Assembly: GCA_963716145.1 (NCBI GenBank)
Contig: OY970292.1
Coordinates: 76,104-140,103, forward strand
From: Candidatus Levyibacteriota bacterium
GTDB taxonomy: Bacteria > Patescibacteriota > Microgenomatia > Levybacterales > UBA12049
Direction: 5' to 3'
DNA: 64,000 nt
The stretch's first letter is position 1; each line of letters begins with the position of its first letter. The notes beneath the pieces were generated by a model. It was not told the DNA's origin, searched no databases, and saw only the letters and a list, made by a program, of their open reading frames with translations. Both the position numbers and the translations under genes were made by a program. Of the stretch, positions 12,306-50,045 are shown piece after piece.

Positions 12306-14620
12306 AGAAAATCTTACCTATCATTTTTCTTGCAATAATTATAGTTATTTTTTTCTCACTCTTACTTTTTAAGAATCGGCTTCCAATTCCAGCAGACACG
12401 ATTGTCGGCTTGTATCATCCATTCAGAGATTTATACGCGAAAGATTATCCAAATGGAATTGCTTTTAAAAATTTTCTAGTTACTGATCCAGTACGTCAGC
12501 AATATCCATGGAAAAATTTGACGATGAATATCGAAAAACGCTTTGAGTTGCCTCTTTGGAATCCGTATAATTTTGCCGGGACACCTCTTCTGGCCAATTT
12601 TCAATCAGCAGCTTTTTATCCCTTAAATCTTATTTTTTTGGTACTACCTTTCTCTATTGGTTGGAGTGGCTTAGTCTTGCTGCAGCCGTTATTGGCAGGA
12701 GTTTTTCTATATTTATATCTAAATAATCTAAAGATCAGTCGTTATTCTAGCATTTTTGGAGCGGTTAGTTTTGCGTTTTGTGGATTCTCGGTTGCATGGC
12801 TTGAGTGGGGAACCGTATCACACACCGCAATATGGTTACCTTTAGTACTTTTGTCGATAGATAAAATTATGCATAACTCAACTGACTCAAAAATTTCAAA
12901 TTTCAAATTTCAAATTTCAAATAAACAAATAAGTGTTAAGAAAAATTTAGTTTGGGCACTATTATTTTTATTTTCTCTTACCTCATCTTTTTTTGCAGGG
13001 CATTTGCAGATATTCTTTTATTTAATTATTGCATCATTTTCTTACTTCTTATTTCGTTGGTTTCAAGAGGGGAGAAATAAAAAAACTTTAATTATATTCT
13101 TAATTCTCATCTCTTTATTCTTAATACTGACAATTATTCAATGGTTGCCTACTCTACAATTTATTTTTCAAAGTGCGCGCGGAGTAGACCAAAATTGGCA
13201 AAAGGAAGGATGGTTCATTCCTTGGCAGAATCTTGCTCAATTTGTAGCGCCTGATTTTTTTGGTAACCCCACAACGCTTAACTATTGGGGAGTTTGGAAT
13301 TACGCTGAATTCATAGGATATATAGGGATAGTGCCATTAATAATGGCGGCTTGTGCATTTTTTCAAAGACGAGAAAAATTGATTATTTTTTTTGGCTCAA
13401 TCTTTTTTCTATCTCTTTTATTTTCCTTGCCCACTTTTTTTGCAATGATTCCTTTCCAGCTCCAAATCCCATTCATATCAACTGCTCAACCTACCCGACT
13501 TTTATTTTTAACAGACTTTTCGCTTGCAGTTCTGGCAGCCCTGGGAATTGATGCGTTGATGAGTTATAACAAAAGGAGGCAAATAATTTATCCACTATTA
13601 TTGGTTGGTCTTATCCTTGTTGGTTTATGGGTTTTTGTTTTTGCAGGCGCAAATTTATTGCACTCTATATCCTTGGAAAATTTAAATACCGCAAAGCGCA
13701 ATCTTTATTTCCCAACGATTATCTTTGTTGTTACAGCAGTCCTACTTTTTTCCTACGTTTCCTTAAAAAATAAAGCATATAGGTCGCTAATTTTAGTTTT
13801 GCTATTAATATTTACAGTTGGCGATCTTCTTCGGTTTACATATAAATTTACTCCCTTTACTCCTCAAAAATATCTTTATCCTAATACAAAAGCTATCGAT
13901 TTTTTGCAAAAACAAAAAGGACAATTCCGTATCATGACAACGGATGACAGAATTTTGCCCCCAAATTTCTCCATAATGTATCAGTTGCAGACACTTGACG
14001 GCTATGACCCTTTATATCTGTTAAGATACGGAGAATTAGTTACGGCGTCAGAGAGGGGAAGACCGGATATAAAACCTCCATTTGGTTTTAATAGAATAGT
14101 TACTCCACATAATTTTGAATCCAACCTGGTGGATTTGATGAATGTCCGTTTTGTTCTGAGTTTGTCTGAGATAAAATCCCCAAAATTGGAAAAGGTTTTT
14201 GAAGAAGGGCAGACAAAAATTTATAAAAATAATTCCGCTTTTCAAAGAGCTTTTTTGGTAAAAAAGATAATAGCTGTTTCCGGTAAACAAAATGCAATTA
14301 ATACACTATTTAATAGTGAAATTGATTTGAAGCAAACTGCGATAGTTGAAAATTGGAATAATAAAAAAACTGACTTTGCTCAAGGATCAGTAAGTATTGT
14401 AGAATACAAAGAGAATAATATTAGTGTTTTGGTTCAAAGTAGACAAGAAGCATTTTTAGTTCTGGTGGATACTTTCTATCCGACCTGGAGTGCACAAGTT
14501 TGTATGTCCGATGACAGTAGTTGTAAAGAGGCAAAAATTTATCTGACCGACTATAATTTCCGCGGGATAGTAATTCCAAAAGGAGTACACAAGGTAATAT
14601 TTAAGAACTCATTATTATGA
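12302..14620 (+). CDS. YfhO-family polytopic membrane protein (GT-C-type glycosyltransferase); carries an in-frame AAATTTC x4 array
   Basis: 772 aa; C-terminal DTFYPTWSA...GIVIPKGVHKVIFK is the characteristic YfhO end; ATGA overlap with flanking genes. Confidence 0.6.
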   Translation: MKKILPIIFLAIIIVIFFSLLLFKNRLPIPADTIVGLYHPFRDLYAKDYPNGIAFKNFLVTDPVRQQYPWKNLTMNIEKRFELPLWNPYNFAGTPLLANFQSAAFYPLNLIFLVLPFSIGWSGLVLLQPLLAGVFLYLYLNNLKISRYSSIFGAVSFAFCGFSVAWLEWGTVSHTAIWLPLVLLSIDKIMHNSTDSKISNFKFQISNKQISVKKNLVWALLFLFSLTSSFFAGHLQIFFYLIIASFSYFLFRWFQEGRNKKTLIIFLILISLFLILTIIQWLPTLQFIFQSARGVDQNWQKEGWFIPWQNLAQFVAPDFFGNPTTLNYWGVWNYAEFIGYIGIVPLIMAACAFFQRREKLIIFFGSIFFLSLLFSLPTFFAMIPFQLQIPFISTAQPTRLLFLTDFSLAVLAALGIDALMSYNKRRQIIYPLLLVGLILVGLWVFVFAGANLLHSISLENLNTAKRNLYFPTIIFVVTAVLLFSYVSLKNKAYRSLILVLLLIFTVGDLLRFTYKFTPFTPQKYLYPNTKAIDFLQKQKGQFRIMTTDDRILPPNFSIMYQLQTLDGYDPLYLLRYGELVTASERGRPDIKPPFGFNRIVTPHNFESNLVDLMNVRFVLSLSEIKSPKLEKVFEEGQTKIYKNNSAFQRAFLVKKIIAVSGKQNAINTLFNSEIDLKQTAIVENWNNKKTDFAQGSVSIVEYKENNISVLVQSRQEAFLVLVDTFYPTWSAQVCMSDDSSCKEAKIYLTDYNFRGIVIPKGVHKVIFKNSLL
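12889..12922. repeat. Perfect tandem heptanucleotide array (AAATTTC)x4, in frame inside the YfhO-family gene (encodes ...KISNFKFQISNK...)
   Basis: aaatttc at 12891-12897, 12898-12904, 12905-12911, 12912-12918, then partial aaat. Confidence 0.9.
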
Positions 14621-15570: not shown

Positions 15571-16292
15571 AATTATCCATAATTATTCCTGTTTTTAATG
15601 AGGAAAACACAATTGTTCCTGTTCTTGAAAAAGTGGAAAAGCTTATAATTCCCGGGGTTAGTAAGGAAATAATCGTAGTGGACGATGGATCGACCGATGG
15701 TTCTGCATCGGTAATTTCAAATTTCAAATCTCAAATTTCAAATAATAAAAATTATAAGTTTATTTATCATAAAAAAAATCAAGGAAAAGGAGCTGCTGTT
15801 ATATCCGGTATTAGAAACGCGACCGGGGATTATATTACTATTCAGGATGCGGATCTTGAATATGACCCATCCTACTTCACATCACTTATTGTTCCAATCA
15901 AAAAAGGCCAGGGATTAGTGGTTTACGGTACCCGGCTTAAGAGACTGCCTCATCTTTTTAACGAAGAAAGCCACGGCCTTTTCCTTTTGCATTATTTAGG
16001 GAATAGGTCTTTAAGTTTTATAACCAGTGTTTTGTACGGTCAATGGATAACCGATATGGAAACTTGTTACAAAATCTTTCCACGAGAGGCTGTTAAAGGT
16101 ATGAAGTTAAATGCAAAAGGTTTTGAGTTTGAACCTGAAATTACGGCAAAGCTGCTTAAGAAAAAATTCAAGATTGTCGAACTGCCGATATCTACTGTCC
16201 CTCGGGGTTATAACGAAGGTAAAAAACTACACACAGTTAGAGACGGAGCAAAAGCGCTTTGGTCACTGGTTAAATATCGGTTTGTTGATTAA
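15567..16292 (+). CDS. GT2 polyprenol-phosphate glycosyltransferase (DPM synthase-like); carries an in-frame AAATTTC array
   Basis: LSIIIPVFNEE...VVDDGSTDGS...IQDADLEYDP motifs. Confidence 0.7.
   Translation: MKLSIIIPVFNEENTIVPVLEKVEKLIIPGVSKEIIVVDDGSTDGSASVISNFKSQISNNKNYKFIYHKKNQGKGAAVISGIRNATGDYITIQDADLEYDPSYFTSLIVPIKKGQGLVVYGTRLKRLPHLFNEESHGLFLLHYLGNRSLSFITSVLYGQWITDMETCYKIFPREAVKGMKLNAKGFEFEPEITAKLLKKKFKIVELPISTVPRGYNEGKKLHTVRDGAKALWSLVKYRFVD
15713..15744. repeat. Tandem heptanucleotide array (AATTTCA)x4, one variant unit aatctca, in frame in the DPM-synthase-like GT2
   Basis: units at 15713-15719, 15720-15726, 15727-15733 (variant), 15734-15740; encodes ISNFKSQISNN. Confidence 0.9.
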
Positions 16293-17816: not shown

Positions 17817-19502
17817 ATGAAAAAGCTTTTTAATACAAAGATTATATTAGCTATTGTAGTTCTAATTGCGGCATTTTTACGCTTTTATCAACTTGGAGTA
17901 AATCCGCCCTCATTAACCTGGGATGAGGTGGCATGGGGATACAATGCCTATTCGATAGGGGTTGACGGACGTGATGAATTCGGAAGATTGCTGCCATATG
18001 ACTATCTTGAATCCTTCGGAGATTTTAAACCTCCAATGTATGCATATTTAAGCGTGATTCCCGTTAAGATTTTTGGTCTTAATGAATTTGCAACCCGCTT
18101 TGCCTCAGCGTTTTTTGGAACCTTAACGGTATTAATTACTTATTTTTTGGTGAAAGCTTTGTTCTCATTAAATCCGAAACAAACTCAAAATTCAAAAAAT
18201 TCATTGGGAATTGGGAATTGGGAATTGGGAATCCCAATAGTAGCAACAATATTCTTGGCAATCTCACCGTGGCACATTATGCTCTCCAGAGCTGCTTTTG
18301 AAGCAAATGTCGCAACCTTCTTTTTAGTTTTCGGAGTTACAAGTTTTCTTTATTGGATAAAGGAAAAAAATACATTTCTCATATTCTCAGTACTGTCGTT
18401 TGCTTTCTCACTTTATACATTTAATTCTGCCCGCGTAGTAGCTCCGCTTTTGGTTAGTATGTTGGTTGCGGGATTTTGGAAAACATTGTGGCAAAGGAAA
18501 AATGCTGTTATCGTAGCAGGGATTATCGGATTTTTGCTTGTTGCACCCCTTGTCCCCTTCTTGCTATCTCCACAGGCAGGATTGAGATATAAAGAGGTAA
18601 ATATTTTTTCTGATCCGCAAATTGTAGAAAAGGCTAATCAGCAAATCACCAATGATAATAACGTCTGGTGGTCAAAGATTATCCATAATCGGCGCGTAGG
18701 ATATGGATTATCTTATTTGCAACATTATTTAGATAACTTTTCCCCTGACTTTCTGTTTATAAAGGGGGACGGAAATCCCAAATTTTCCACGCAAGAAGTC
18801 GGACAAATGTATATTTGGTCATTACCATTTTTTATCTTAGGCGTACTTTTTCTATTTAAAAAGAGAGAAGGATATTGGTGGATAGTTCCTGCTTGGTTAT
18901 TGCTCGGTATTGTTCCCGCGGCAGTAGCGCGTGAGACTCCTCATGCTTTAAGGACTGAGGGGACATTGCCTACATTTCAAATACTTGAGGCTTATGGTTT
19001 TATAGGAACTCTCTTCTTTCTTAAGGAGCATTTCAGAAGGAAGATTCTTACTTTCACCTGCGCAATCTTCGGGATAATATATATGTTGAATTTTGTTTAT
19101 TTTCTTCATGGTTATTATGTTCATTATGCATGGAAATGGTCAGGTGAATGGCAGTATGGTTATAAAGATTCGATCACTTTTGTTAAAGATAATGAACAGC
19201 AATTTGATAAAATTTTCGTAACAGACTCTCTAGGAAGACCGTATGTTTATTACCTATTTTATCTACATATTTCTCCTGAAACTTTCAGAAATAATGTAAA
19301 AGTAGAACGTGATGCATTCGGATTTGTAAAAGTAAAAGAAGTTGGAAAATTTTCTTTTGAGAGTAATATTAGCGGAAGCAAGCTTAAAGGTGAGAAAGTT
19401 TTATATATTAGTGATATGAAAAATATTCCTCAAAAGGCAAAAGTTCTAAAAACGTTTTATCTCAAAAACGGAAGCCCAATATTAATTGCATACAGTATGT
19501 AA
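17817..19502 (+). CDS. PMT/ArnT-like GT-C glycosyltransferase (GT39/GT83-like); carries an in-frame TTGGGAA x4 array
   Basis: 561 aa; N-terminal loop WDEVAWGYNAYS with DE motif, ~12 TM helices, large C-terminal domain. Confidence 0.5.
   Translation: MKKLFNTKIILAIVVLIAAFLRFYQLGVNPPSLTWDEVAWGYNAYSIGVDGRDEFGRLLPYDYLESFGDFKPPMYAYLSVIPVKIFGLNEFATRFASAFFGTLTVLITYFLVKALFSLNPKQTQNSKNSLGIGNWELGIPIVATIFLAISPWHIMLSRAAFEANVATFFLVFGVTSFLYWIKEKNTFLIFSVLSFAFSLYTFNSARVVAPLLVSMLVAGFWKTLWQRKNAVIVAGIIGFLLVAPLVPFLLSPQAGLRYKEVNIFSDPQIVEKANQQITNDNNVWWSKIIHNRRVGYGLSYLQHYLDNFSPDFLFIKGDGNPKFSTQEVGQMYIWSLPFFILGVLFLFKKREGYWWIVPAWLLLGIVPAAVARETPHALRTEGTLPTFQILEAYGFIGTLFFLKEHFRRKILTFTCAIFGIIYMLNFVYFLHGYYVHYAWKWSGEWQYGYKDSITFVKDNEQQFDKIFVTDSLGRPYVYYLFYLHISPETFRNNVKVERDAFGFVKVKEVGKFSFESNISGSKLKGEKVLYISDMKNIPQKAKVLKTFYLKNGSPILIAYSM
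18204..18245. repeat. Perfect tandem heptanucleotide array (TTGGGAA)x4 ending in the palindrome ATTGGGAATCCCAAT, in frame in the PMT-like gene
   Basis: units 18204-18210, 18211-18217, 18218-18224, 18225-18231; encodes LGIGNWELGI. Confidence 0.9.
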
Positions 19503-25254: not shown

Positions 25255-25800
25255 ATGAGAATCGGAATCGACATATCGCAAACAGCTTATGAGAACACAG
25301 GAGTTGCCAACTATACAAAAAGTTGGGTTGAGGGTTTGTTGAGAGTTGATCAAGAAAATGAGTATATTCTTTTTTTCTCATCTCTGAGAAAAAAAATTCC
25401 CTCATTTGCCAAAGATTTATCAAGGCAGAAAAACTCAAAAGTCAAAATAAAAACATTTAAATATCCCCCGACTCTTCTCGACATGTTCTGGAATAGGCTA
25501 CATATTATGCCAATTGAGGATTTGATAGGACAGGTTGATGTTTTCATCTCGTCCGATTGGACTCAGCCGCCGACAAAACGGGCAAAAAAGGTGACAATAC
25601 TTTATGACCTGATCGTTTATAGATATCCTGAAGAAACAGATATTAAAATTGTTCACACGCAAAGAAGAAGATTGAATTGGGTTAAAAAAGAATGTGATGT
25701 TATTTTTTGTATCTCTGAATCAACAAAACAAGATGCAAGGGACATACTGGCGATTGAAGAGAACCGTTTAAAAGTTGTTTATCCCGGAATTCAGCTATGA
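25255..25800 (+). pseudogene. Truncated GT4 glycosyltransferase, N-terminal Rossmann half only (possible duplication remnant)
   Basis: 181 aa resembling the N-terminal half of neighbouring GT4s (MRIGID...NEYILF) and ending at the mid-protein YPGI linker; the next gene is a complete GT4. Confidence 0.4.
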
Positions 25801-26945
25801 TTATTGGAATTGATGGTAATGAAGCAAACGTTAAAAAACGTGTAGGTATCAGTGAGTACGCGTTTGAGTTGTTGCGACAATTTTCAAAAATTAATTTTCA
25901 AAACTCAAAGTTCACAATTTATTTGAAGGATGATCCAGTCAGCGATATGCCCGCTGAAAGTGAGGGTTGGAAGTACAGAATTATTAAACCAGGCAAATTG
26001 TGGACTCAGTGGAGATTACCACTTGATTTGTATTTAAGAAAGAGCAGGCCTGATGTATTTTTCTCTCCCTCTCATTATGCTCCGCGTTTTTCTCCCGTCC
26101 CGACAGTTATTTCAATTATGGATTTATCCTATCTTTATTTTCCTGAAATGTTTAATAGGGCTGATTTATTACAACTTCGTAATTGGACAGCCTATTCAGT
26201 AAAAAATGCCAAAAAGATCCTGACAATCAGTAAATCGAGCAAAAATGATATAATTAATTCATACAAAGTACCTGCGGAGAGAATAATTGTAACTTATCCG
26301 GGCATAAAACAATCGGCGTCTCTCTCACAGCACATTTATGTTATGAATCAATTAAAAGCAAGATACAAAATTTCAGATAACTATATTTTATTTGTTGGGA
26401 CACTTCAGCCGAGGAAAAATATTGAAAGGTTGATTGAGGCATTTGCCCTGATGCTGAAAAATGCGGATCTAAACGCTGAAAAACGCCAAAATTTGCAATT
26501 GGTTATTGTAGGGAAGAAAGGATGGTTATATGAAAAAATTCTGGCAGCACCCAAAAAATTTGAAATAGAAGATAAGGTAAAATTTTTAGAAAACGTAAAC
26601 GACGACGAGCTTGCAATTTTTTATAAACATGCATTATGCTTTGTTTTGCCAAGCCTATATGAGGGGTTTGGGTTGCCTGTTCTAGAGGCAATGCAGGCAG
26701 GATGCCCGGTTATAACAAGTGATGTTTCAAGCCTCCCTGAAGCAGGAGGAGATGCATGTATTTATATAGATCCCGAAGACGCGGGCGACATTGCGGACAA
26801 AATATGGAAACTCATCACAACTGAGAAACTAAGACACGAATTGATAGAAAAAGGGAAAAAGCAGGTTAAGAAATTTAGCTGGGAAAAAACTGCTAGAGAA
26901 ACCTTATCTGTTTTGGAAGAAATTGCCCAAAATAAAAATATATGA
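25797..26945 (+). CDS. GT4 family glycosyltransferase
   Basis: PSLYEGFGLPVLEAMQAGCPVITSDVSSLPEAGGDA C-terminal motif. Confidence 0.7.
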   Translation: MIIGIDGNEANVKKRVGISEYAFELLRQFSKINFQNSKFTIYLKDDPVSDMPAESEGWKYRIIKPGKLWTQWRLPLDLYLRKSRPDVFFSPSHYAPRFSPVPTVISIMDLSYLYFPEMFNRADLLQLRNWTAYSVKNAKKILTISKSSKNDIINSYKVPAERIIVTYPGIKQSASLSQHIYVMNQLKARYKISDNYILFVGTLQPRKNIERLIEAFALMLKNADLNAEKRQNLQLVIVGKKGWLYEKILAAPKKFEIEDKVKFLENVNDDELAIFYKHALCFVLPSLYEGFGLPVLEAMQAGCPVITSDVSSLPEAGGDACIYIDPEDAGDIADKIWKLITTEKLRHELIEKGKKQVKKFSWEKTARETLSVLEEIAQNKNI

Positions 26946-31493: not shown

Positions 31494-32938
31494 AAAAAAC
31501 CGGAAAATTATACTCCATACTTTTAGCGGTGATTCTCTTGGTAGGATTTGCTGTAAGGCTATACCGGTTCAATAATCCAATTGCAGATTGGCACAGTTGG
31601 CGTCAGGCAGACACATCAGCAGTTTCCAGGAATTTTGTTAAAAATAGTTTTGACGTACTTCACCCAAGATTTGATGATCTTTCAAATGTTCCATCAGGGC
31701 TTGATAATCCTCAGGGATACCGGTTTGTAGAATTTCCAATTTATAACATTAAGCAAGCATTTCTTTTCAAAACACTTGGGCTATTTACGCTTGAAGAATG
31801 GGGTAGATTGATAAGTATTTTTGCATACGTTTGTAGCTCTCTTTTTTTATATCTTTTGGTATCCCGTCATAGTAATAAGACTATTGGCTTGTTAAGCGCG
31901 TTTTTTTACACTTTTATCCCCTACAATATTTATTATGGCAGAACAATTTTGCCCGATCCATTGATGGTTACTGCGTCACTTGGGGGAATTTATTTTTTTG
32001 ATTTATGGTTAGAAAATTTCAAATCCAGGAGCAAAAATTATTTATTTTTTATTTTAGCAACCATTTTTACAGCCTGCGCATTATTGGTCAAGCCTTACGC
32101 TTTATTTTTTACGCTGCCGATGATTGTATTGGTTTGGCAAAAGTGGGGAATAGGATTTTTAAAAAAATGGCAGCTGTGGATTTTTGCCATTCTTTCTGTA
32201 CTTCCTCTTATTTGGTGGAGAAATTGGATTACCCAATACCCGGCCGGAATTCCCGCTAACGAATGGCTTCTCAATGGAAACGGGATACGTTTCAGACCGG
32301 CTTTTTTCCGCTGGATTTTTTATGAAAGGATTACAAAGTTAATAAGCGGATACCTGGGAGTAATTATTTTGGCAGTTGGTATTTGGAAAATAAAAAAACA
32401 AAAAGAATGGATGTTTTTTGTTTCATTTTTGTTAAGTTCGTTATTGTACGTAATTGTTTTTGCAACAGGGAATGTGCAGCACGATTATTATCAGATACTT
32501 ATTATGCCAAGCCTGTCGATATTTTTCGCAATAGGAAGTTACTATTTGTACATACTAAATTTAAAAAAGCAACCGGTTGGGAAAATAGTTTTGGCGATAA
32601 GTCTTATAAGTCTTTTCTGGTTTGGGTGGAGTCAGGTAAAGGATTATTTTAATATTAATAATCAGTCAATTATTACGGCAGGTAAGGCAGTTGATAAACT
32701 TACTCCAAAAGATGCAAAGGTTATCGCAAATTATAATGGCGATACCTCATTTCTTTATCAAACTAACAGACAGGGTTGGGCAAGTCTGCAAAATCCACTT
32801 CCTGAAATGGTCCAAAAAGGAGCGGACTATCTGGTTCTTCTTAATCCGACAGAAAAAGATATGGATTTTGGCAAGCCCTACCAAATCGTTACGCGCACTC
32901 GAGAATATATTATTTTTGATTTACACAAAAGCCCATGA
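31490..32938 (+). CDS. ArnT/PMT-like GT-C glycosyltransferase
   Basis: 482 aa polytopic; N-terminal loop DWHSWRQADTSAVSRNF typical of phospholipid-carrier-dependent glycosyltransferases. Confidence 0.45.
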   Translation: MKKTGKLYSILLAVILLVGFAVRLYRFNNPIADWHSWRQADTSAVSRNFVKNSFDVLHPRFDDLSNVPSGLDNPQGYRFVEFPIYNIKQAFLFKTLGLFTLEEWGRLISIFAYVCSSLFLYLLVSRHSNKTIGLLSAFFYTFIPYNIYYGRTILPDPLMVTASLGGIYFFDLWLENFKSRSKNYLFFILATIFTACALLVKPYALFFTLPMIVLVWQKWGIGFLKKWQLWIFAILSVLPLIWWRNWITQYPAGIPANEWLLNGNGIRFRPAFFRWIFYERITKLISGYLGVIILAVGIWKIKKQKEWMFFVSFLLSSLLYVIVFATGNVQHDYYQILIMPSLSIFFAIGSYYLYILNLKKQPVGKIVLAISLISLFWFGWSQVKDYFNINNQSIITAGKAVDKLTPKDAKVIANYNGDTSFLYQTNRQGWASLQNPLPEMVQKGADYLVLLNPTEKDMDFGKPYQIVTRTREYIIFDLHKSP

Positions 32939-33567
32939 AGATTTTGATGGTTAGCTCCTTTCTCCCGTATCCGCTTTTTTCGGGAGGGCAGGTCAGGCTT
33001 TTTAATCTTATTAAGGAATTGTCAGCGCGTCACGAGATAACATTAATTTGTGAGAAACGTGAGAATCAAACCGCTGAGGATGAAAATGAGCTCGGGAAAA
33101 TCTGTAAAAAAATTATAACAGTTAAAAGGAAGAAGCAATGGTCAATGAGAAATATATTGAAAACTGCATTCTCTTCAAATTCATTTTTGGTTACAGGCCA
33201 CACCAACATAGAAATGCAAAATAAAATAAAAGAAGAACTAGAAAGAGAAAAGTACGATTTAATTCATGTGGAAACTTATTATATAATGCAAAATTTACCC
33301 TCTGCATTATCAATTCCTGTAGTTTTGGCGGAACACAACATAGAGTATCAGGTTTACAAGAAGTATGTTGACCAAGGATCGCTATTTTTAAAACCTTTGC
33401 TTTCTTTGGATGTTGCAAAAATACAGAAAGAGGAGGAAAGTTTTTGGAAAAAAGCTGATAAATTAATTGCAGTTTCAGGGGATGATAAAAACGCGATGGA
33501 GAAAAAGGGGCTTATGCCCGTTATTGTTGCGAATGGGGTGGACACTGAGAAATTTAGTTTTAAACTA

Positions 33568-33597
33568 GAATTAAGAATTAAGAAGCAAGAATTAAGG
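33568..33597. repeat. Tandem heptanucleotide array (GAATTAA)x4, one variant gaagcaa, in frame in the frameshifted GT4
   Basis: units 33568-33574, 33575-33581, 33582-33588 (variant), 33589-33595, then gg; encodes LELRIKKQELR. Confidence 0.9.
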
Positions 33598-33680
33598 CGA
33601 ATTTTGTTTATTGGTGATTTTAAGTGGTTGCAAAATAGAGACGCTGTGAAGTTTATAGTTGAGGAGATATGGCCCAAAAT

Positions 33681-33715
33681 AATTTCAAATTTCAAATTTC
33701 AAATTTCAAATTCTC
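33681..33715. repeat. Tandem heptanucleotide array (AATTTCA)x4 plus variant aattctc, in frame in the same GT4
   Basis: units 33681-33687, 33688-33694, 33695-33701, 33702-33708, 33709-33715 (variant); encodes ISNFKFQISNSQ. Confidence 0.9.
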
Positions 33716-34140
33716 AATTAAAATTGTGGATTGTTGGGAGAGAGATTCCGGACTCTATAAAAAACTTAACAAATGATCAAGATATCATTTTTGATGAAGA
33801 AGGATCAGCTAGGCCAACGGAAGAATTATTCCAGGAGGCTGATATTCTTTTTGGCTCCGATCAGAATAGGCGGAGGGACTAGTTATAAAATACTTGAGAG
33901 CATGAGCAGTGGTACGCCCGTCGTAACTACAGAACTTAGCGCAAGTGTAATTGATGCAAAGGATAGCATAAATATTATGGTAGGCAAAAATGCTCAAGAG
34001 CTATCTGAAAAAACATTAAAGCTTCTTTCTGATAAAAGACTTTATCAAGCAGTGGCAAAAAATGGGCGGAGCTTGATTGAAGAAAAATACACATGGAGAA
34101 AAATCGCCAATGAGCTGGATAAAGTTTATAAAAGTCTGAT

Positions 34141-35058
34141 ATGAACAAAGTTGATTTATCAATTGTTATCCTAAATTACAACACCAAGCAGTTGACACTT
34201 GATGCTATTTCATCAATTGAAAAGAACTATCCGGATGAAGTTAAATCTGAGAAATACGAAGTGATAGTTGCGGATAATGCTTCACCGGATGACTCGCATA
34301 AAGCGTTCGAAGAGTATAAAAAGAAAAGTAAAATTAAATCTTTTCACGTCGTTGATAACGGTGGGAATATTGGGTTCTCCAAAGGCAATAATAACGGCTT
34401 AAAATATTCTCAGGGACGGTATGTTTTATTTCTGAATCCCGACACGGTAGTTTATCCCAAAACATTGGACAAAATGGTTGAGTTTATGGATACACATCTT
34501 GGCGCCGGAGCTGCAACCTGCAAAGTCGAGATCCCTGCGGGTGGAATTGATGATGCATCTCATCGGGGATTCCCAACTCCCTGGAACGCCTTAACTCACT
34601 TTTCAGGTTTTGAAAAGTTATTTCCAAAAAGTCGAATATTCGCAGGATATACTCAAGGATTTAAAGATATGAATAGCGTGCATGAGGTTGATGCCATATC
34701 GGGAGCTTTCTTATTTGTTCGGCGGGAAGTTGGGGAGCAGATCGGCTGGTGGGATGAAGAATACTTTTTTTATGGAGAAGATATCCAGTTTTGTTACAAC
34801 ATTAAAAAAGCAGGATATAAAATCTATTATGTGCCAGATGTCAGCATTCTTCACTACGGAGGCGTGTCAAGCGGTATTAAAAAGCAATCCCACCACATAA
34901 CCACAGCAGATAAAGAGCACCGAAAAATTATGCAGAGTCATCGTTTTGCCGCGATGCGGATTTTTTACAAAAAAAATTATCAGAAAAGATACCCCAAGTT
35001 TGTTAGTTGGATTGTAAACAAAGGAATTGACAGCCTACATAAAAAGCATTCGTCTTAG
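34141..35058 (+). CDS. GT2 family glycosyltransferase
   Basis: LSIVILNYNTKQLT...VADNASPDDS. Confidence 0.7.
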   Translation: MNKVDLSIVILNYNTKQLTLDAISSIEKNYPDEVKSEKYEVIVADNASPDDSHKAFEEYKKKSKIKSFHVVDNGGNIGFSKGNNNGLKYSQGRYVLFLNPDTVVYPKTLDKMVEFMDTHLGAGAATCKVEIPAGGIDDASHRGFPTPWNALTHFSGFEKLFPKSRIFAGYTQGFKDMNSVHEVDAISGAFLFVRREVGEQIGWWDEEYFFYGEDIQFCYNIKKAGYKIYYVPDVSILHYGGVSSGIKKQSHHITTADKEHRKIMQSHRFAAMRIFYKKNYQKRYPKFVSWIVNKGIDSLHKKHSS

Positions 35059-35079: not shown

Positions 35080-36195
35080 ATGAAAATTGGCATTGATGCA
35101 AGGCTTTGGAGCGAAACTGGAGTTGGGAGATATATCCGCAATTTGGTAAAGGAACTTCAAGTATTGGACAAGAAGAATGAGTATGTTTTGTTTGTCAGAA
35201 AGGCAGATTACGATAAGGTTAAATTTCAAATTTCAAATGATAAATTCCATATCAGAATTGCGGATATCCGTTGGCACACAATTGACGAGCAGCTGAAGCT
35301 TCCTCATATACTAGATAAAGAAAATGTGGACTTGGTTCATTTTCCTTATTTTTCTGTTCCTGTGGGTTACAAAAAGCCTTTCGTTATGACAATTCATGAT
35401 TTGATTCTTAATCATTTCCCGACAGGTAAAGCCTCCAAGCTCCCTCTGTATTTATATCAATTAAAGCGTCTTGGCTATGATTATGTAGTAAAAAAAGCAG
35501 TGAAGAGAGCGCAAAAAATTATCGTTCCCCTCAATGCTGTCAGAGATGATTTGGTAGCAACACTTGGAGTCAAAGAAGAAAAAGTTGCTGTAACGTATGA
35601 AGGCTTTGATGAAAAAATAATCAGTAAAGATAAGTCATCGATTGATGATACTAAATATTTTTTGTATGTTGGGAACGCATATCCACACAAGAATATCGAA
35701 AGACTAATAAAAGCCTTTTCCCTTTTTAGAAAAGAACAAAATGCAGAAGTACATTTGCTGTTGGTTGGCAAGGACGACTATTTTTATAAAAAACTTTCAG
35801 AAAAAATAAGGAAAGAAAATTATTCTGGAATTTTGATAAGGAACAATGTAAAAGATTATGAGCTTGCAAATTATTATAATAACGCTATAGCGCTCATTTC
35901 CCCCTCTCTTATGGAAGGATTTGGACTTCCGGTGCTTGAAGCAATGGCATCATCATGTGCCGTACTTGCGTCAGATATTCCCTCACTCAGAGAAGTGTGC
36001 GAAGGTGCGGCGTTATACTTTAATCCGCATTCTATTACAGAGATAAAAGATAAAATGAATCTTATTTTTAATACTGACAAAGAAACTCTAGAAAAATTAA
36101 TAAATAAAGGATTAGATCGTTCTCAGCAATTTTCCTGGAAAAAAATGGCAGAACAAACACTGAAAGTTTATGAAAGTTGCTTTAGTTTACGATAG
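35080..36195 (+). CDS. GT4 family glycosyltransferase; carries short AAATTTC x2 array
   Basis: MKIGIDARLW N-term and SPSLMEGFGLPVLEAMASSCAVLASDIPSLREV C-term. Confidence 0.7.
   Translation: MKIGIDARLWSETGVGRYIRNLVKELQVLDKKNEYVLFVRKADYDKVKFQISNDKFHIRIADIRWHTIDEQLKLPHILDKENVDLVHFPYFSVPVGYKKPFVMTIHDLILNHFPTGKASKLPLYLYQLKRLGYDYVVKKAVKRAQKIIVPLNAVRDDLVATLGVKEEKVAVTYEGFDEKIISKDKSSIDDTKYFLYVGNAYPHKNIERLIKAFSLFRKEQNAEVHLLLVGKDDYFYKKLSEKIRKENYSGILIRNNVKDYELANYYNNAIALISPSLMEGFGLPVLEAMASSCAVLASDIPSLREVCEGAALYFNPHSITEIKDKMNLIFNTDKETLEKLINKGLDRSQQFSWKKMAEQTLKVYESCFSLR
35221..35238. repeat. Short tandem array (AAATTTC)x2 plus partial, in frame in GT4 35080..36195
   Basis: units 35221-35227, 35228-35234, then aaatgat; encodes KFQISND. 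Confidence 0.8.
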
Positions 36196-37258
36196 GATCA
36201 ATAAATGGGGCGGTGCTGAGAGGCTTCTCCTTGCGCTTCATGAATTATTCCCTGAAGCGTCTCTTTATACATCCGTTTATGATAAGGAAAAAGCTCTTTG
36301 GGCAGAAGTTTTTGATATTAGAACTTCTTTTCTGCAAAACATTCCATTTGCCTCAACAAATCATGAACTTCTTGCAGCGTTTATGCCTTTGGCATTTGAA
36401 AGTTTTACTTTTGACGAGTATGATTTGGTGATCTCACTAACTAGTGAGGCAGCAAAAGGAATTATCACAAAACCCGGTACAATACATATTTGTTATTGCC
36501 TAACCCCTACCCGGTATTTGTGGAGCGGTTATGACGAATACTTCAAGAGTGATAGTCTCAAAATTATGTCAAAACCTATTGTTTCAGGTCTTCGCAGGTG
36601 GGATATAGCAGCGAGCAGACGGCCAGATGCCTTTATCGCGATATCCAAGGAAGTTCAAAAAAGAATTAAAAAATATTATGGAAGAGAATCTGATTTGGTT
36701 TATCCGCCAGTGACATTGAGCGCAAGAGCGCAAGAGCGCAAGAGCGCAACGAAGGAAGGAGAATATTTTCTAGTTGTGTCACGTTTGTCAAAGTTTACGG
36801 GATATAAGAGAGTTGACTTGGTTATTGAAGCTGTCAATGAACTTAAAATTCCTTTGAAAATTATTGGGGATGGAAGCTTGAGAAAAGAACTGGAACAAAT
36901 GGCAGGACCGACAATCGAATTTATAGGAAATGTTAATGATGATGAATTGGGTGGATATTACAAAAACTGCAAAGCATTGATCTTTCCGGGGAAAGAGGAC
37001 TTGGGGTTGGTAATGATTGAGGCACAAATGTTTGGAAAACCGGTTATTGCTTACAAGGAAGGTGGAGCTGTAGAATTGGTGATTGAGGCCAAGACGGGAA
37101 TATTTTTCCAGCAGCAAACAAAAAAATCATTAATTGAAGCGCTACAGAAATTTGAAAAAACCAAATTTGATTCAAAAGCCTGCAGAAAAAATGCAGAAAA
37201 ATTTAGCATGGATAAATTTAAGCAAAATTTCTTGTCGGTTGTGAATAAATTGATTTGA
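36170..37258 (+). CDS. GT4 family glycosyltransferase; carries GAGCGCAA x4 array
   Basis: MKVALVYDRINKWGGAERLL N-term, FPGKEDLGLVMIEAQMFGKPVIAYKEGG C-term; 26-nt overlap with upstream gene. Confidence 0.65.
   Translation: MKVALVYDRINKWGGAERLLLALHELFPEASLYTSVYDKEKALWAEVFDIRTSFLQNIPFASTNHELLAAFMPLAFESFTFDEYDLVISLTSEAAKGIITKPGTIHICYCLTPTRYLWSGYDEYFKSDSLKIMSKPIVSGLRRWDIAASRRPDAFIAISKEVQKRIKKYYGRESDLVYPPVTLSARAQERKSATKEGEYFLVVSRLSKFTGYKRVDLVIEAVNELKIPLKIIGDGSLRKELEQMAGPTIEFIGNVNDDELGGYYKNCKALIFPGKEDLGLVMIEAQMFGKPVIAYKEGGAVELVIEAKTGIFFQQQTKKSLIEALQKFEKTKFDSKACRKNAEKFSMDKFKQNFLSVVNKLI
36718..36749. repeat. Perfect tandem octanucleotide array (GAGCGCAA)x4, in frame in GT4 36170..37258
   Basis: units 36718-36725, 36726-36733, 36734-36741, 36742-36749; encodes SARAQERKSAT. 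Confidence 0.9.
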
Positions 37259-43864: not shown

Positions 43865-44302
43865 ATGTTAATTGGACAGTATGAAAGTAAAATTGGTGAA
43901 AAACATCAAGCAGCATTACCTAAAAAATTCAGGGAGATTCTTGGTGACCGATTAATTATTACAAAGGGGTTTGAAAATTGCTTGATTGTAGTGTCAGTCG
44001 ACAATTGGAAAACTCTTCTGGAAGGAACGGAGGGAAAACCGTTTACGAGTAAAGCAACGCGTGAATTGCAAAGGTTTTTATTGGGAAACGCGACAGACAT
44101 AACGCTTGACAGTAAAGGAAGATTTGTAATACCTGAATATTTAAGAGAATTCGCAAGCATAAAAACTGAAGTAGTCATAGCCGGAATTGAGAGATTTATC
44201 GAGATCTGGGACAAAGGTAAATGGGAAGATCAGCAAAAGGAATTGAGTAAAAACATTGAATCAATCGCAGAAAGGCTGTCCGAAGGAAAGAGTGAATCAT
44301 GA
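43865..44302 (+). CDS. mraZ: Transcriptional regulator MraZ
   Basis: MLIGQYESKIGEKHQAALPKKFREIL and second repeat RFVIPEYLREFA typical of duplicated MraZ/SpoVT-AbrB-like halves; first gene of dcw cluster. Confidence 0.8.
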   Translation: MLIGQYESKIGEKHQAALPKKFREILGDRLIITKGFENCLIVVSVDNWKTLLEGTEGKPFTSKATRELQRFLLGNATDITLDSKGRFVIPEYLREFASIKTEVVIAGIERFIEIWDKGKWEDQQKELSKNIESIAERLSEGKSES

Positions 44303-44323: not shown

Positions 44324-44371
44324 GAAATTAAACCATAATTCATACTTCATAATTCTTGATTCTAAAAAAAG

Positions 44372-45271
44372 ATGGGTAATACATATCACACGACAGTACT
44401 TTTAGAAGAAACAGTAGATGGTTTAAATGTTAAAGAAGGGAAGAAATATATCGACGCTACATTGGGAGGAGGAGGACACAGTTTTGAGATTTTGAAGCGC
44501 GGAGGGAGAGTATTGGGTTTGGATGCAGATCAAGATGCGCTTGATTTTGTTCAGGAAGAATTAAGAATTAAGAATCAAGAATTAAGGTTTGAAAAGAAAA
44601 ATTTAACCTTAGCAAAGGGAAATTTTAAGGACATTGATAAAATTGCAACAGAATTTGGATTTGAAAAAGTTTTTGGCATTGTTTTTGATCTTGGGGTCTC
44701 GAGCCACCAGCTAGACACTGTGGAAAGAGGGTTTAGTTTTCAAAGCACTGGCCCTTTAGACATGCGGATGGATCGAGATCTTAGCGTCAAAGCTGCGGAT
44801 TTGGTAAATATCCTAACGAAAGGAGAGCTTTATGAGTTATTTAATAAACTGGGTGAGGAGCATTTTGCTCACGCCATATCAGAAAGTATTGTTAGCAGTC
44901 GCCGAGTAAGTCCAATTAAGACGACATCAGAATTGGTAGAAATTGTAAGAAGCGCCGTGCCAAGACTGAAACATAATATTAATCCGGCGACTAAAGTATT
45001 TCAAGCGCTGAGAATTGCGATAAACGATGAGTTTAATAACTTGAAGGAAGCTCTACCAAAAGCACTGGAGTTATTGGATGCACATGGAAGATTAGCCGTA
45101 ATCGCGTTTCATTCACTTGAGGATAGAATAATAAAAAATCAATTTAAAGAATTTGCTGAAATGGGACAGGGAGTCATTATTACAAAAAAACCGATTAGTC
45201 CAAGTTTTGCTGAAATTGAAGGAAACAGGCGCTCAAGAAGCGCAAAATTAAGAATTATTGAAAAGATATAA
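44372..45271 (+). CDS. rsmH: 16S rRNA (cytosine1402-N4)-methyltransferase RsmH; contains in-frame GAATTAA x4 insertion
   Basis: YHTTVLLEETVDGL...DATLGGGGHS...FDLGVSSHQLD...RGFSF signature; follows mraZ. Confidence 0.85.
   Translation: MGNTYHTTVLLEETVDGLNVKEGKKYIDATLGGGGHSFEILKRGGRVLGLDADQDALDFVQEELRIKNQELRFEKKNLTLAKGNFKDIDKIATEFGFEKVFGIVFDLGVSSHQLDTVERGFSFQSTGPLDMRMDRDLSVKAADLVNILTKGELYELFNKLGEEHFAHAISESIVSSRRVSPIKTTSELVEIVRSAVPRLKHNINPATKVFQALRIAINDEFNNLKEALPKALELLDAHGRLAVIAFHSLEDRIIKNQFKEFAEMGQGVIITKKPISPSFAEIEGNRRSRSAKLRIIEKI
44558..44587. repeat. Tandem heptanucleotide array (GAATTAA)x4, one variant gaatcaa, in frame inside rsmH (encodes EELRIKNQELR, apparent ~10-aa loop insertion)
   Basis: units 44558-44564, 44565-44571, 44572-44578 (variant), 44579-44585, then gg. 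Confidence 0.9.
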
Positions 45272-48765: not shown

Positions 48766-50043
48766 TTGCTATACTATCGGTACAGCAATATGTGGCAAAA
48801 AACAAAAAATCAATATCATCTGGGGCAAGCGCTACTTGCAAATATTATTTACATGTTTCCATCCAGAAAACTTAAAATAATTGGAGTCACGGGAACAGAT
48901 GGAAAAACAACTACTGCAACCCTCATTCATCATATTTTAATAAACTCGGGACATAAAGCTTCTCTTATCACCACGGTCGGCGCCGTAATAAATGATAAAT
49001 TTTCGGATATTGGCTTTCATGTTACAACTCCCGGGCGGTTCGCGCTGCAGTCGTATCTGAAAAGATCAAAAAAACAAGGCTCTGAATATATTGTGCTTGA
49101 ACTGACTTCTCATGCGCTTGATCAATACCGTGCTTTTGGAATCCCAATTGAGGTTGGTGTTCTGACCAATGTCAGTAACGAGCATCTGGATTATCATAAA
49201 ACTTATGAAAAGTATGTGGCTGCGAAATTAAAATTGCTCAAAAAGGCAAAAATTGCAATTGTAAATAAGGACGATAAGTCGTATAAGTTTGCAAAAGTCT
49301 CTTTAAAAAATAAGAGAATAATAACTTATGGAATGAAAAAAGACGCTGATGTTAATCCGCACAATTTTCCATTCAAAACAAAATTAATTGGCAAGTTTAA
49401 TCTCTATAATTCTCTAGCTGCTATTTCAGTGCTTCAGCAAATGCACGTAGCTGAAGAAGATATAAAGAAGGGTATTTTAAGTTTTATGCTACCGGCAGGC
49501 AGACAGGAGATAATTTATGATAAAGAATTTACAGTAATTAATGATTTTGCTCATACGCCAAATTCTTTTTTAAGCGTTCTTCCTGAAATAAAGAAACTCA
49601 CCAAACGCAAGCTAATTCATGTTTTTGGAGCTGCGGGAAAAAGAGATAAATATAAAAGAGCGGAAATGGGTAAAATATCCTCGGACTATGCGGATGTTAT
49701 TATTCTCACAGCTGAAGATCCGAGAAACGAAATAATTGAGGAGATTAACAGGCAGATAATGTCGGGAATTACAGATGCCGAGTTTGGGATCGTAAATTAC
49801 GAAGCACTCAAAAATAGAGAAGTGTATCTGGACACAAAAAACAAATATGTTATCTCAATTCCTGACAGGAGAGACGCGATTAATTTTGCGATTGAAATTG
49901 TCCAAAAGGGTGATTTAGTTTTACTAACCGGCAAGGGTCATGAAAAATCTATAGACTATGGAAAAGGGGAGGAGCCATGGAATGAGAAGGAAACGGCATG
50001 GCAAGCAATTGAAAGGAATAAAGAATCAAGAATCAAGAATTAA
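48766..50043 (+). CDS. murE: Mur ligase family protein, MurE-like (P-loop GVTGTDGKTTT, DNPR-like EDPR motif) lacking the N-terminal UDP-binding domain; probable ATG start at 48790; stop codon lies inside a GAATTAA-type array
   Basis: Central and C-terminal Mur ligase domains present; P-loop only ~40 residues from the N-terminus (about 110 in E. coli MurE); TAEDPRNE motif. Confidence 0.55.
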   Translation: MLYYRYSNMWQKTKNQYHLGQALLANIIYMFPSRKLKIIGVTGTDGKTTTATLIHHILINSGHKASLITTVGAVINDKFSDIGFHVTTPGRFALQSYLKRSKKQGSEYIVLELTSHALDQYRAFGIPIEVGVLTNVSNEHLDYHKTYEKYVAAKLKLLKKAKIAIVNKDDKSYKFAKVSLKNKRIITYGMKKDADVNPHNFPFKTKLIGKFNLYNSLAAISVLQQMHVAEEDIKKGILSFMLPAGRQEIIYDKEFTVINDFAHTPNSFLSVLPEIKKLTKRKLIHVFGAAGKRDKYKRAEMGKISSDYADVIILTAEDPRNEIIEEINRQIMSGITDAEFGIVNYEALKNREVYLDTKNKYVISIPDRRDAINFAIEIVQKGDLVLLTGKGHEKSIDYGKGEEPWNEKETAWQAIERNKESRIKN

Positions 50044-50045
50044 GG
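50016..50045. repeat. GAATTAA-type array (gaataaa gaatcaa gaatcaa gaattaa gg) forming the last codons and TAA stop of the murE-like gene
   Basis: units 50016-50022, 50023-50029, 50030-50036, 50037-50043; stop TAA 50041-50043 is inside the last unit. Confidence 0.9.

What the first reader, a model, noticed from the sequence alone, without database searches (positions are those of the whole stretch)
36718..36749. GC-rich octamer array (GAGCGCAA)x4 inside an AT-rich GT4 gene
A perfect 32-bp array with an 8-bp unit (also not a multiple of 3) lies in gene 36170..37258 and encodes SARAQERKSAT. Its GC content contrasts strongly with the AT-rich surrounding sequence. It has the same copy number (4) and in-frame status as the heptamer arrays. 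This hints at a common generating mechanism rather than unit-specific slippage.
Basis: seen in the sequence. Interest (0 to 1): 0.55.

Follow-up and report, generated by a model that had tools for sequence, protein, structure and literature searches.

The report
Octamer repeat switch in glycosyltransferase hinge
A perfect four-copy 8-base repeat encodes the floppy hinge of a sugar-transferring enzyme in a Levybacteria (candidate phyla radiation) genome; it is a rare 8-base member of a phylum-wide class of about 32-base, mostly 7-base slippage repeats, and whole-unit changes in these repeats switch the same enzyme on or off between near-identical strains.

Summary
(GAGCGCAA)x4 is perfect at 36718-36749, none is expected by chance, and it lies in frame in a GT4 glycosyltransferase gene (36170..37258).

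It encodes residues 183-194. These contain the only low-confidence stretch of the AlphaFold model (186-193), in the hinge between the two Rossmann domains.

In 80 Levybacteria orthologues the same hinge is full of tandem arrays. Nearly all have 7-nt units, and one other has an 8-nt unit.
- Over 919 kb, perfect period-7 arrays of at least 2.5 copies number 82, against 0.3 expected.
- Other periods are at expectation. The only period-8 arrays of four or more copies are these two hinge arrays.
- Array length is focal: median 32 nt.

The closest GTDB orthologue carries a decayed octamer array at the same place.

Two pairs of near-identical assemblies differ by exactly one or two heptamer units in this hinge. 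In each pair one gene is intact and the other is split.

Best reading: a slippage-made coding microsatellite. It is ON at 1, 4 or 7 units and OFF otherwise, which makes it a contingency-type switch. Variation of the octamer itself was not seen, and I did not test whether switching is adaptive. Why 7 nt and about 32 nt are preferred remains unexplained.

The parts
36718..36749 (+). (GAGCGCAA)x4 perfect tandem array; encodes S184-A193 plus parts of L183 and T194
36170..37258 (+). GT4-type (GT-B fold) glycosyltransferase gene, 362 aa, in frame through the array
   Evidence: Pfam PF00534/PF13692. AlphaFold model mean pLDDT 89. Foldseek best matches are GT4 retaining transferases HepE, tll1591, MshA and BshA. 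E276-x7-E284 is invariant in alignment A1.
36170..36709 (+). N-terminal Rossmann-like domain (residues 1-180, ends at the conserved YPP)
   Evidence: alignment A1; model
36710..36763 (+). hypervariable inter-domain hinge (54 nt, V181-E198) that holds the array; residues 186-193 are the only segment with pLDDT below 50
36764..37255 (+). C-terminal Rossmann domain (starts at the conserved YFLVVSR); out of frame if the array gains or loses 1 or 2 units
12891..12922 (+). same class: (AAATTTC)x4.6, perfect, in a YfhO-like membrane protein gene
15713..15743 (+). same class: (AATTTCA)x4.4 in a GT2 gene
18203..18232 (+). same class: (ATTGGGA)x4.3, perfect, in a PMT-like GT-C gene
33567..33596 (+). same class: (AGAATTA)x4.3 in the hinge of paralogous GT4 32935..34144
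33681..33717 (+). same class: (AATTTCA)x5.1 in a 13-aa loop (between IWP.I and KLW) of paralogous GT4 32935..34144. Orthologues carry arrays of other units at the same place.
35221..35238 (+). same class, short: (AAATTTC)x2.6 in GT4 35080..36195. The L114 orthologue has (AAAGTTC)x4.7 at the same position.
44556..44586 (+). same class: (AAGAATT)x4.4, 91% matches, in MraW/RsmH
50016..50044 (+). same class: (GAATCAA)x4.1 spanning the stop codon of a Mur ligase gene

Best explanation
The array is a long-unit coding microsatellite. Replication slippage made it, and recently re-homogenised it, in the structurally unconstrained hinge between the two Rossmann domains of a GT4 glycosyltransferase. The gene lies in a roughly 40-kb surface-glycan gene island of a Candidatus Levyibacteriota (Patescibacteria) genome.

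With 4 units the gene is in frame, and the repeat simply encodes about 11 residues of disordered linker. Because the unit is 8 nt, gaining or losing one or two units shifts the frame. The product is then an N-domain-only protein of 195-217 aa. Only 1, 4 and 7 units are ON, and the 1-unit hinge would be shorter than any observed. The array is therefore a low-copy, contingency-type ON/OFF switch.

It is the rare 8-nt member of a phylum-wide class of about 32-nt arrays, almost all with 7-nt units. These occupy the same permissive sites: hinges, loops, gene ends and gene junctions.

Shown:
- the array, its frame and its disordered-hinge location;
- the class and its statistics;
- whole-unit ON/OFF polymorphism in heptamer arrays of the orthologous hinge.

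Inferred:
- that the octamer itself slips at a useful rate;
- that switching is selected rather than merely tolerated.
For: Array, frame and peptide.

Hinge location: hypervariable alignment columns between the invariant YPP and YFLVVSR. The only pLDDT<50 segment is residues 186-193.

Class membership:
- Hinge DNA of 80 orthologues is dominated by period-7 arrays of many different units, plus one other octamer, L033 (GGTACAAA)x4.25.
- Perfect arrays of at least 2.5 copies in 919 kb: period 7 gives 82 against 0.3 expected. The only period-8 arrays of 4 or more copies are these two hinge arrays. Periods 4-6 and 9-12 are at expectation.
- Length is median 32 nt, IQR 30-34.

Slippage and turnover:
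- L002 (75% aa identity) has a 54-nt hinge of the same length. It carries a decayed period-8 array with consensus AGCGCAAA (TRF; lag-8 autocorrelation P=5e-5). The window's perfect copy therefore implies recent homogenisation.
- The syntenic relative L114 has arrays at the same positions in four orthologous genes, but with different units.
- In the paralogue's loop the units are AAACTCA, AAAATCA, AAAGTCA and AAGATCA, each homogenised within its own lineage.

ON/OFF alleles:
- L134 against L133: 5606 nt identical except a 14-nt (2-unit) indel in the hinge array. One gene is intact at 361 aa; the other is split into 201-aa and 172-aa ORFs.
- L057 against L129: 3479 nt with 4 SNPs plus one 7-nt unit indel. 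One gene is intact at 363 aa; the other is split into 198-aa and 162-aa ORFs.
- Paralogue L040 is out of frame by exactly one unit.
- L131 and L132 are split at an array-bearing hinge in two samples.

Frame arithmetic for the octamer.

Precedents: hepta- and octanucleotide SSRs as candidate phase-variation tracts in H. influenzae (PMC2651432). Heptamers as the most over-represented long SSR class, attributed to polymerase slippage (Mrazek et al. 2007 as cited in PMC4692102 and PMC4679880).
Against: No length variation of the octamer itself was seen. The only other assembly of this organism has the same 4 copies. A flank-anchored search of JGI metagenomes found nothing.

Four units is a short tract, and many arrays of the class are stable:
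- 17 contigs of one species are identical in all arrays.
- L010 and L026 keep the same array length across about 5% divergence.
- L039 and L043 keep both arrays, in degenerate form, at about 72% identity.

Arrays also occur in MraW, at the end of a Mur ligase gene and in short intergenic spacers. They are therefore not confined to genes where switching makes sense.

I found the ON/OFF pairs by looking for truncated proteins, so they give no unbiased rate. They may also be two assemblies of one sample.

Of six ON/OFF protein pairs within 90% clusters, three are not array-mediated.
Confidence: 0.6

Rival explanations
1. Neutral filler. The array is a slippage-born microsatellite that persists only because the hinge tolerates any in-frame sequence. 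Frameshift alleles are ordinary deleterious or pseudogenising mutations, not a switch. The array has no role beyond providing linker length.
For: The hinge is the least constrained part of the protein. Its length ranges from 39 to 210 nt, with unrelated sequences. Arrays of the class also sit in housekeeping genes, gene ends and spacers. Many arrays are length-stable and decay by point substitution. Non-array frameshifts occur in the same hinge.
Against: Arrays are kept or regenerated at the same sites across the phylum, with lineage-specific homogenised units. That needs repeated slippage through out-of-frame intermediates. In two near-identical pairs the unit indel is the only difference, or one of five. 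In-frame unit sizes (3, 6, 9) are not enriched at all, although they should dominate among neutrally tolerated coding repeats.
Confidence: 0.3
2. A dedicated, non-slippage generator with a length ruler of about 32 nt writes short arrays of a 7-8-nt template at permissive sites. Candidates are a template-repeating polymerase or a repair pathway. The octamer is one of its products.
For: Period specificity is extreme and length is sharply focal: median 32 nt, with 67 of 97 arrays at 4-5 copies. The same length holds for 8-nt units (32 and 34 nt) and for arrays outside reading frames.
Against: The observed mutational steps are single or double whole-unit indels, as expected from slippage. No candidate enzyme was identified. 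A focal length can arise from length-dependent expansion and contraction bias together with the frame filter.
Confidence: 0.05
3. In-frame insertion of a GC-rich hairpin-forming selfish element, like Rickettsia palindromic elements, rather than a locally grown repeat.
For: The unit is GC-rich in an AT-rich gene. It can form GCGC/GCGC mini-hairpins (DNA z = -2.4). Other orthologues carry GC-rich palindromes in the same hinge, for example L020, L035, L046 and L051.
Against: It is a pure tandem array of 32 nt, with no other copy in the window. L002 shows the same period-8 structure in decayed, AT-richer form at the same place. The seed TTGAGCGC (Leu-Ser-Ala) resembles the L-[SG]-A-[RE] start of the hinge in several orthologues.
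Confidence: 0.03
4. Assembly or sequencing artefact, for example a longer array collapsed by a k-mer assembler.
For: All perfect arrays in the window are 30-32 nt, close to k=31. The window differs from the Logan contig by two homopolymer indels.
Against: The k=31 Logan contig runs straight through a 32-nt array, which is impossible for 5 or more copies. The same focal length is seen in MAGs made with MEGAHIT k141 and SPAdes. The gene is in frame.
Confidence: 0.02

Closest known systems
SSR contingency loci in surface-glycan glycosyltransferase genes of host-adapted bacteria. In H. influenzae, tetranucleotide SSRs dominate and hepta- and octanucleotide SSRs are candidates (PMC2651432). My own knowledge adds the gene examples lic2A, lgtC and lex2A and poly-G tracts in Neisseria and Campylobacter.
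   Same: An intragenic tandem repeat whose unit is not a multiple of 3. Slipped-strand mispairing changes unit number and shifts the frame, turning a glycosyltransferase ON or OFF. Several glycan genes in one cluster carry such tracts.
   Different: The organism is an environmental candidate-phyla-radiation bacterium. Units are 7-8 nt, not 1-5. There are only about 4-5 copies, against typically 6-40. The tract sits mid-gene in the inter-domain hinge, not near the 5' end. No switching rate or phenotype is known, and variation of this particular tract was not observed.
Long SSRs (units of 5-11 nt) with heptanucleotide over-representation in prokaryotes (Mrazek et al. 2007, as cited in PMC4692102 and PMC4679880)
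   Same: Strong, period-specific excess of 7-nt tandem arrays. The proposed cause is polymerase slippage tied to the length of DNA held at the active site. Here 8-nt arrays are a minor companion class.
   Different: Those arrays are mostly intergenic, and units that are multiples of three are said to dominate in coding regions. Here the arrays are overwhelmingly inside ORFs, in frame, at conserved permissive sites, with a narrow focal length.
Intergenic heptamer repeat families: cyanobacterial tandem heptanucleotides, Beggiatoaceae TAACTGA (PMC4679880), Xanthomonas/Nostoc GGGNATC (PMC4692102)
   Same: Short tandem heptamer arrays of 2-6 or more copies, scattered over a genome and lineage-specific.
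   Different: Those families use one or a few fixed units genome-wide and lie between genes. Here dozens of different units occur, each local, mostly coding.
Rickettsia palindromic elements (in-frame selfish insertions in protein genes; my own knowledge)
   Same: Extra sequence tolerated in frame, in surface-exposed or disordered parts of otherwise conserved proteins.
   Different: Those elements are 100-150-bp dispersed palindromic elements. This is a 32-nt local tandem repeat with no other copy in the window.

Membership tests
SSR-mediated phase-variable (contingency) locus | Tandem repeat tract within an ORF or promoter whose unit length is not a multiple of three | tested here: met
   8-nt unit x4 inside ORF 36170..37258
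SSR-mediated phase-variable (contingency) locus | Change of unit number switches the reading frame ON or OFF | tested here: met
   In-silico 0-8 units: ON at 1, 4 and 7; otherwise truncated products of 195-217 aa
SSR-mediated phase-variable (contingency) locus | Tract-length polymorphism of this tract among cells or strains of the same species | tested here: inconclusive
   Only one other assembly of this organism exists, and it has the same 4 copies. The flank-anchored metagenome scan gave 0 hits. No reads are available.
SSR-mediated phase-variable (contingency) locus | Natural ON and OFF alleles that differ by whole units (tested in orthologous and paralogous tracts of the same class) | tested here: met
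   L134/L133: 14-nt indel is the only difference in 5606 nt. L057/L129: 7-nt indel plus 4 SNPs in 3479 nt. L040 is out of frame by one unit. The pairs were ascertained through truncated proteins.
SSR-mediated phase-variable (contingency) locus | High-frequency, reversible switching with a selectable phenotype | not testable with these tools
   Needs reads, cultures or time series. Consensus sequences of 17 contigs of a related species show no change.
Long SSR (unit 5-11 nt) class | Near-perfect tandem array far longer than chance, with a 5-11-nt unit | tested here: met
   Score 64, 0 expected. Class statistics.
Levybacteria array class of about 32 nt (defined here) | Coding-strand array of 28-36 nt at a permissive site (hinge, loop or terminus) of an envelope or glycan gene | tested here: met
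   32 nt, hinge, pLDDT<50
Levybacteria array class of about 32 nt (defined here) | 7-nt unit | tested here: not met
   The unit is 8 nt. Only one other 8-nt case (L033) was found among 80 orthologous hinges.
CAZy GT4-type GT-B glycosyltransferase (the host gene) | Glycos_transf_1 C-terminal domain above the Pfam threshold, a two-Rossmann GT-B fold and an E-x7-E motif | tested here: met
   PF00534 at 95.5 bits against a cut-off of 26.4. Model pTM 0.86 with GT4 structures as best matches. E276 and E284 are invariant.
In-frame palindromic selfish element (Rickettsia-palindromic-element-like) | Dispersed multi-copy element with a long palindrome | tested here: not met
   No other copy in the window. 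Only 4-bp GCGC stems.

The most novel reading that the evidence does not exclude
Levybacteria, and perhaps other Patescibacteria, maintain a conserved switch module. It is an array of about 32 nt with 7-8-nt units, kept by selection in the inter-domain hinges and loops of many glycan-synthesis genes. Surface glycosylation is then combinatorially phase-variable in these ultra-small episymbionts. Frameshifts at the hinge may not simply kill the enzyme. They may convert a fused GT-B into two separately translated half-enzymes: stable split versions exist (P0252 and P0255 types), and L131 has a stop-then-ATG junction. The strict 7-nt period and the focal length would reflect a lineage-specific replication or repair property.
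Probability: 0.2. Interest if true: 0.75.

Novelty: new member of a known kind. Interest (0 to 1): 0.5.

Why it matters
Phase variation through repeat slippage is textbook for host-adapted pathogens. My searches of the held literature found no report of it in candidate-phyla-radiation bacteria. Their surface glycans probably govern attachment to host cells and exposure to phages.

The data show a phylum-wide and statistically extreme excess of 7-nt coding arrays, with rare 8-nt ones, at conserved permissive sites of glycosylation genes. They also show clean ON/OFF alleles between near-identical genomes.

This gives two things:
- a concrete, read-level testable hypothesis for surface variation in uncultured ultra-small bacteria;
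- a natural data set for the old question of why heptamers dominate long bacterial microsatellites.

There is also a practical point for annotation. Split GT4 genes in these MAGs may be switch states rather than errors.

Tried and rejected
1. Copy-number variants of this exact locus. The flank-anchored pattern with a variable gap found 0 hits in JGI metagenomes. The exact protein occurs only in one run plus the source genome.

2. Other GAGCGCAA arrays. There are none in the window. In metagenomes, 32 contigs carry them, mostly GC-rich unrelated organisms. Two low-GC, phage-like contigs (L094, L101) carry at least 10-12 copies in a small ORF. None of this links to the GT4 locus.

3. The split GT4 at 32935..34144 as a heptamer-slippage OFF state. 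Rejected: the Logan contig shows that the break is a T5/T4 homopolymer difference at 33848.

4. L021 as an OFF allele. Rejected: it is a 1-nt indel 15 nt downstream of the array, on a low-coverage contig.

5. k=31 collapse artefact. Rejected.

6. A-AAT-TTC as a ribosomal slippery heptamer. Rejected: most units, including GAGCGCAA, do not fit X XXY YYZ.

7. The reading-frame filter as the sole cause of the length of about 4.5 units. Weakened by junction and intergenic arrays of similar length.

8. Literature searches for heptamer or tandem repeats in Patescibacteria or Levybacteria found nothing relevant.

9. Enrichment of arrays in glycan genes over other genes could not be tested, because nearly all DNA in hand is the glycan island.

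Full report
**Observation.** Positions 36718-36749 read GAGCGCAA four times without a mismatch, and the flanking bases (T before, C after) do not extend the repeat. TRF gives period 8, 4.0 copies, 100% matches and score 64. A two-unit probe with up to two mismatches finds only this array, and finds nothing in 100 dinucleotide-preserving shuffles. The array lies in ORF 36170..37258 (+, 362 aa) and encodes ...YPPVTL-SARAQERKSAT-KEGEYFLVVSR.... The unit is 62.5% GC in a region of 37% GC. An independent k=31 assembly of run ERR11593400 (L001) is 99.95% identical to the window over 6.6 kb and carries the same four copies. An array of five or more copies would have created a k-mer cycle and broken that contig.

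**Host gene and position in the protein.**
- The product matches Pfam Glycos_transf_1 (3.4e-27) and Glyco_trans_1_4.
- An AlphaFold model built on 36 homologues has mean pLDDT 89 and pTM 0.86.
- Its best PDB matches are GT4 retaining glycosyltransferases of the GT-B fold: HepE, tll1591, MshA, BshA and PglA.
- E276-x7-E284 is invariant.
- In the alignment the array falls in the only hypervariable block, between the conserved YPP and YFLVVSR.
- In the model the only segment with pLDDT below 50 is residues 186-193, inside the array-encoded peptide.

The array therefore encodes the disordered hinge between the two Rossmann domains.

**Genomic context.** The first roughly 41 kb of the window is a glycan and envelope island. 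It holds GT2, GT4 and PMT-like GT-C genes, YfhO, a Wzy_C protein, a flippase, a sugar nucleotidyltransferase, an initiating sugar transferase and DUF4012. RecO, a tRNA synthetase and the mraZ-mraW-ftsI-mur cluster follow. Relatives identify the source as Candidatus Levyibacteriota, in the Patescibacteria.

**The array belongs to a phylum-wide class.** I extracted the hinge DNA from 80 orthologous loci in GTDB genomes.
- Most hinges consist of short tandem arrays with 7-nt units of many kinds, such as AAATACG, GCAAATG, CAGGGAT, GTATCAA, AATCAAG, AAATCTC, AAGTCCG and CAGATAT.
- One hinge (L033) has another octamer, (GGTACAAA)x4.25.
- Over 919 kb (loci plus window), perfect arrays of at least 2.5 copies number 82 for period 7, against 0.3 expected from a first-order Markov model.
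- Period 8 has only these two arrays of four or more copies and is otherwise at expectation. Periods 4-6 and 9-12 are at expectation.
- Ninety-seven TRF period-7 arrays have a median length of 32 nt (IQR 30-34), and 67 have 4-5 copies.
- Of 133 period-7 or period-8 arrays, 117 lie inside intact ORFs on the coding strand. Typical positions are GT4 hinges, a 13-aa loop of a paralogous GT4, and a loop of PMT-like proteins.
- The window has eight such arrays.
- The class is not restricted to glycan genes. It also occurs in MraW, across the stop codon of a Mur ligase gene, and in short spacers at gene junctions.

**Evolutionary behaviour.**
- The closest GTDB orthologue, L002 (75% aa identity), has a hinge of the same length, 54 nt. 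It carries a decayed period-8 array with consensus AGCGCAAA (TRF 75% matches). The lag-8 autocorrelation is 0.59 (P=5e-5), and 34 of 54 positions match the window.
- L115 has the same length with no periodicity left.
- The closest relative overall, L114 (about 80% aa identity, syntenic), has an 81-nt hinge built of heptamers.

The octamer array is therefore old in one sub-lineage. Its perfection in the window implies recent homogenisation by unit turnover. This is concerted evolution.

The same pattern appears elsewhere. L114 carries arrays at the same positions as the window in four orthologous genes, but with different units. In the paralogue's loop the units AAACTCA, AAAATCA, AAAGTCA and AAGATCA are each homogenised in their own lineage, while the loop stays 13 aa long.

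Many arrays are nonetheless length-stable:
- 17 contigs of one species are identical in all arrays.
- L010 and L026 keep their array through about 5% divergence.
- L039 and L043 retain both arrays in degenerate form at about 72% identity.

**Direct evidence for whole-unit slippage and ON/OFF alleles.** A search with the N-terminal domain alone returned many ORFs of 184-212 aa that stop in the hinge, on contigs of 3-570 kb. Several fall in the same 90% clusters as full-length proteins.
- L134 (NCBI JAHFKD010000012.1, intact 361 aa) and L133 (ENA ERZ27279942) are identical over 5606 nt except for a 14-nt indel. This is two heptamer units of the hinge array. It splits the L133 gene into 201-aa and 172-aa ORFs.
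- L057 (JAKALN010000023.1, intact 363 aa) and L129 (ENA ERZ27237587) differ over 3479 nt by four SNPs and one 7-nt unit of the hinge array. The L129 gene is split into 198-aa and 162-aa ORFs.
- L131 and L132, from two samples, are split at an array-bearing hinge. The junction reads TAA-AA-ATG, a stop followed by a start.
- The paralogue in L040 is out of frame by exactly one unit, 26 nt against 31-33 nt in orthologues.
- Three other ON/OFF protein pairs are not array-mediated.

I found these cases by looking for truncated products, so they do not give a rate. Each pair could also be two assemblies of one population.

**What this means for the octamer.** In-silico unit changes show ON states at 1, 4 and 7 units. 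All other states give N-domain-only products of 195-217 aa. The 1-unit hinge would be 30 nt, below the minimum of 39 nt seen in 80 orthologues. Four units is therefore the shortest plausible ON state. This explains 'four copies and in frame' for 7- and 8-nt units alike without a special generator. Junction and intergenic arrays are also about 27-36 nt long, so an intrinsic focal length may exist as well. Single-stranded, the array can form two GCGC/GCGC mini-hairpins (DNA z = -2.4), which could stabilise slipped intermediates. The GC-rich unit plausibly grew from the Leu-Ser-Ala codons (TTGAGCGC) that open the hinge in several orthologues. That last point is an inference.

**Comparison with what is known.**
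- Heptanucleotides are reported as the most over-represented long SSR class in many bacteria. This has been attributed to the length of DNA held by the polymerase (Mrazek et al. 2007, as cited in PMC4692102 and PMC4679880). Those arrays are mainly intergenic.
- Hepta- and octanucleotide tracts, including intragenic ones with frameshifts, are listed as candidate phase-variation tracts in H. influenzae (PMC2651432).
- My literature searches found nothing on such repeats in Patescibacteria.

The octamer works like a contingency-locus tract. Membership is only partly established. The tract, its frame logic and ON/OFF alleles in sister tracts are shown. Variation of this tract, its rate and any phenotype are not.

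**Verdict.** This is a real, non-random coding microsatellite in a disordered hinge. It is most likely a low-copy slippage switch for a glycan-synthesis enzyme (confidence 0.6). The main rival is a neutral, tolerated filler (0.3). I rate it a new member of a known kind, in a lineage where this was not known. The unexplained features are the strict 7-nt period, the focal length of about 32 nt, and the wholesale replacement of the hinge between 99.4%-identical genes (L119/L120).

Noticed in passing
window 33848 and 38506 (against L001): The window and the Logan contig of the same organism differ by two homopolymer indels. T5 against T4 at 33848 splits GT4 32935..34144 in the window only. C4 against C3 at 38506 truncates the Bac_transf gene in the Logan contig only. 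These are probably sequencing or polishing errors, one in each assembly.
   Followed up: partly
L119 242-1312 against L120 2596-3699: Two strains have GT4 genes that are 99.4% identical outside the hinge, yet their hinge sequences are completely unrelated (51 against 84 nt) and the flanks are identical right up to the hinge. The replacement is precise and its mechanism is unknown.
   Followed up: partly
hinges of L020, L035, L046, L051, L028, L068 (coordinates); peptides RHPERSEGS and ARRAGPP in alignment A1: GC-rich palindromic or hairpin inserts lie in frame in the same hinge of AT-rich orthologues. In L051 a 16-nt perfect palindrome interrupts an (AAAATTC)n array. This is reminiscent of in-frame selfish palindromic elements.
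   Followed up: no
proteins P0167, P0180, P0186, P0187, P0208, P0252, P0255: One subfamily of this GT4 always ends 2-6 residues after the YPP/FPP motif (184-190 aa), on contigs up to 569 kb. All three members of the P0252 cluster are 184 aa. The gene may be stably split into two polypeptides at the hinge.
   Followed up: partly
L094 5001-5099 and L101 1-83: Low-GC, phage-like metagenome contigs (carrying deformylase-like and QueD-like genes) hold at least 10-12 copies of the same GAGCGCAA unit inside a small ORF (ERKSARAQ repeats). Both contigs end in the array.
   Followed up: partly
window 44301-44355; L045 8906-8937; L029 5203-5236; L064 9015-9048; L023 7082-7114; L073 7141-7167; L005 4280-4306: Heptamer arrays of about 4-5 units sit exactly at gene junctions, spanning a stop codon, filling the spacer or directly preceding the next start codon. 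Examples are Bac_transf to DUF4012, GT4 to NTP-transferase, and MraZ to MraW. They could affect translational coupling or spacing.
   Followed up: partly
window 12891-12922, 15713-15743, 33681-33717, 35221-35238: The same unit (rotations of AAATTTC) recurs at four loci in different genes. Two arrays share an identical 31-mer, which is why the k=31 Logan contig breaks at 33684.
   Followed up: partly
window 25255-25800: A 181-aa ORF with only the N-terminal GT4 domain (Glyco_transf_4) lies directly upstream of a full-length GT4 (25797..26945). It may be a remnant or a split gene.
   Followed up: no
919 kb of Levybacteria loci plus the window: Tandem repeats with in-frame unit sizes (3, 6, 9 nt) show no excess at all, while 7-nt units are enriched more than 200-fold. 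This is the opposite of what is usually reported for coding regions.
   Followed up: yes
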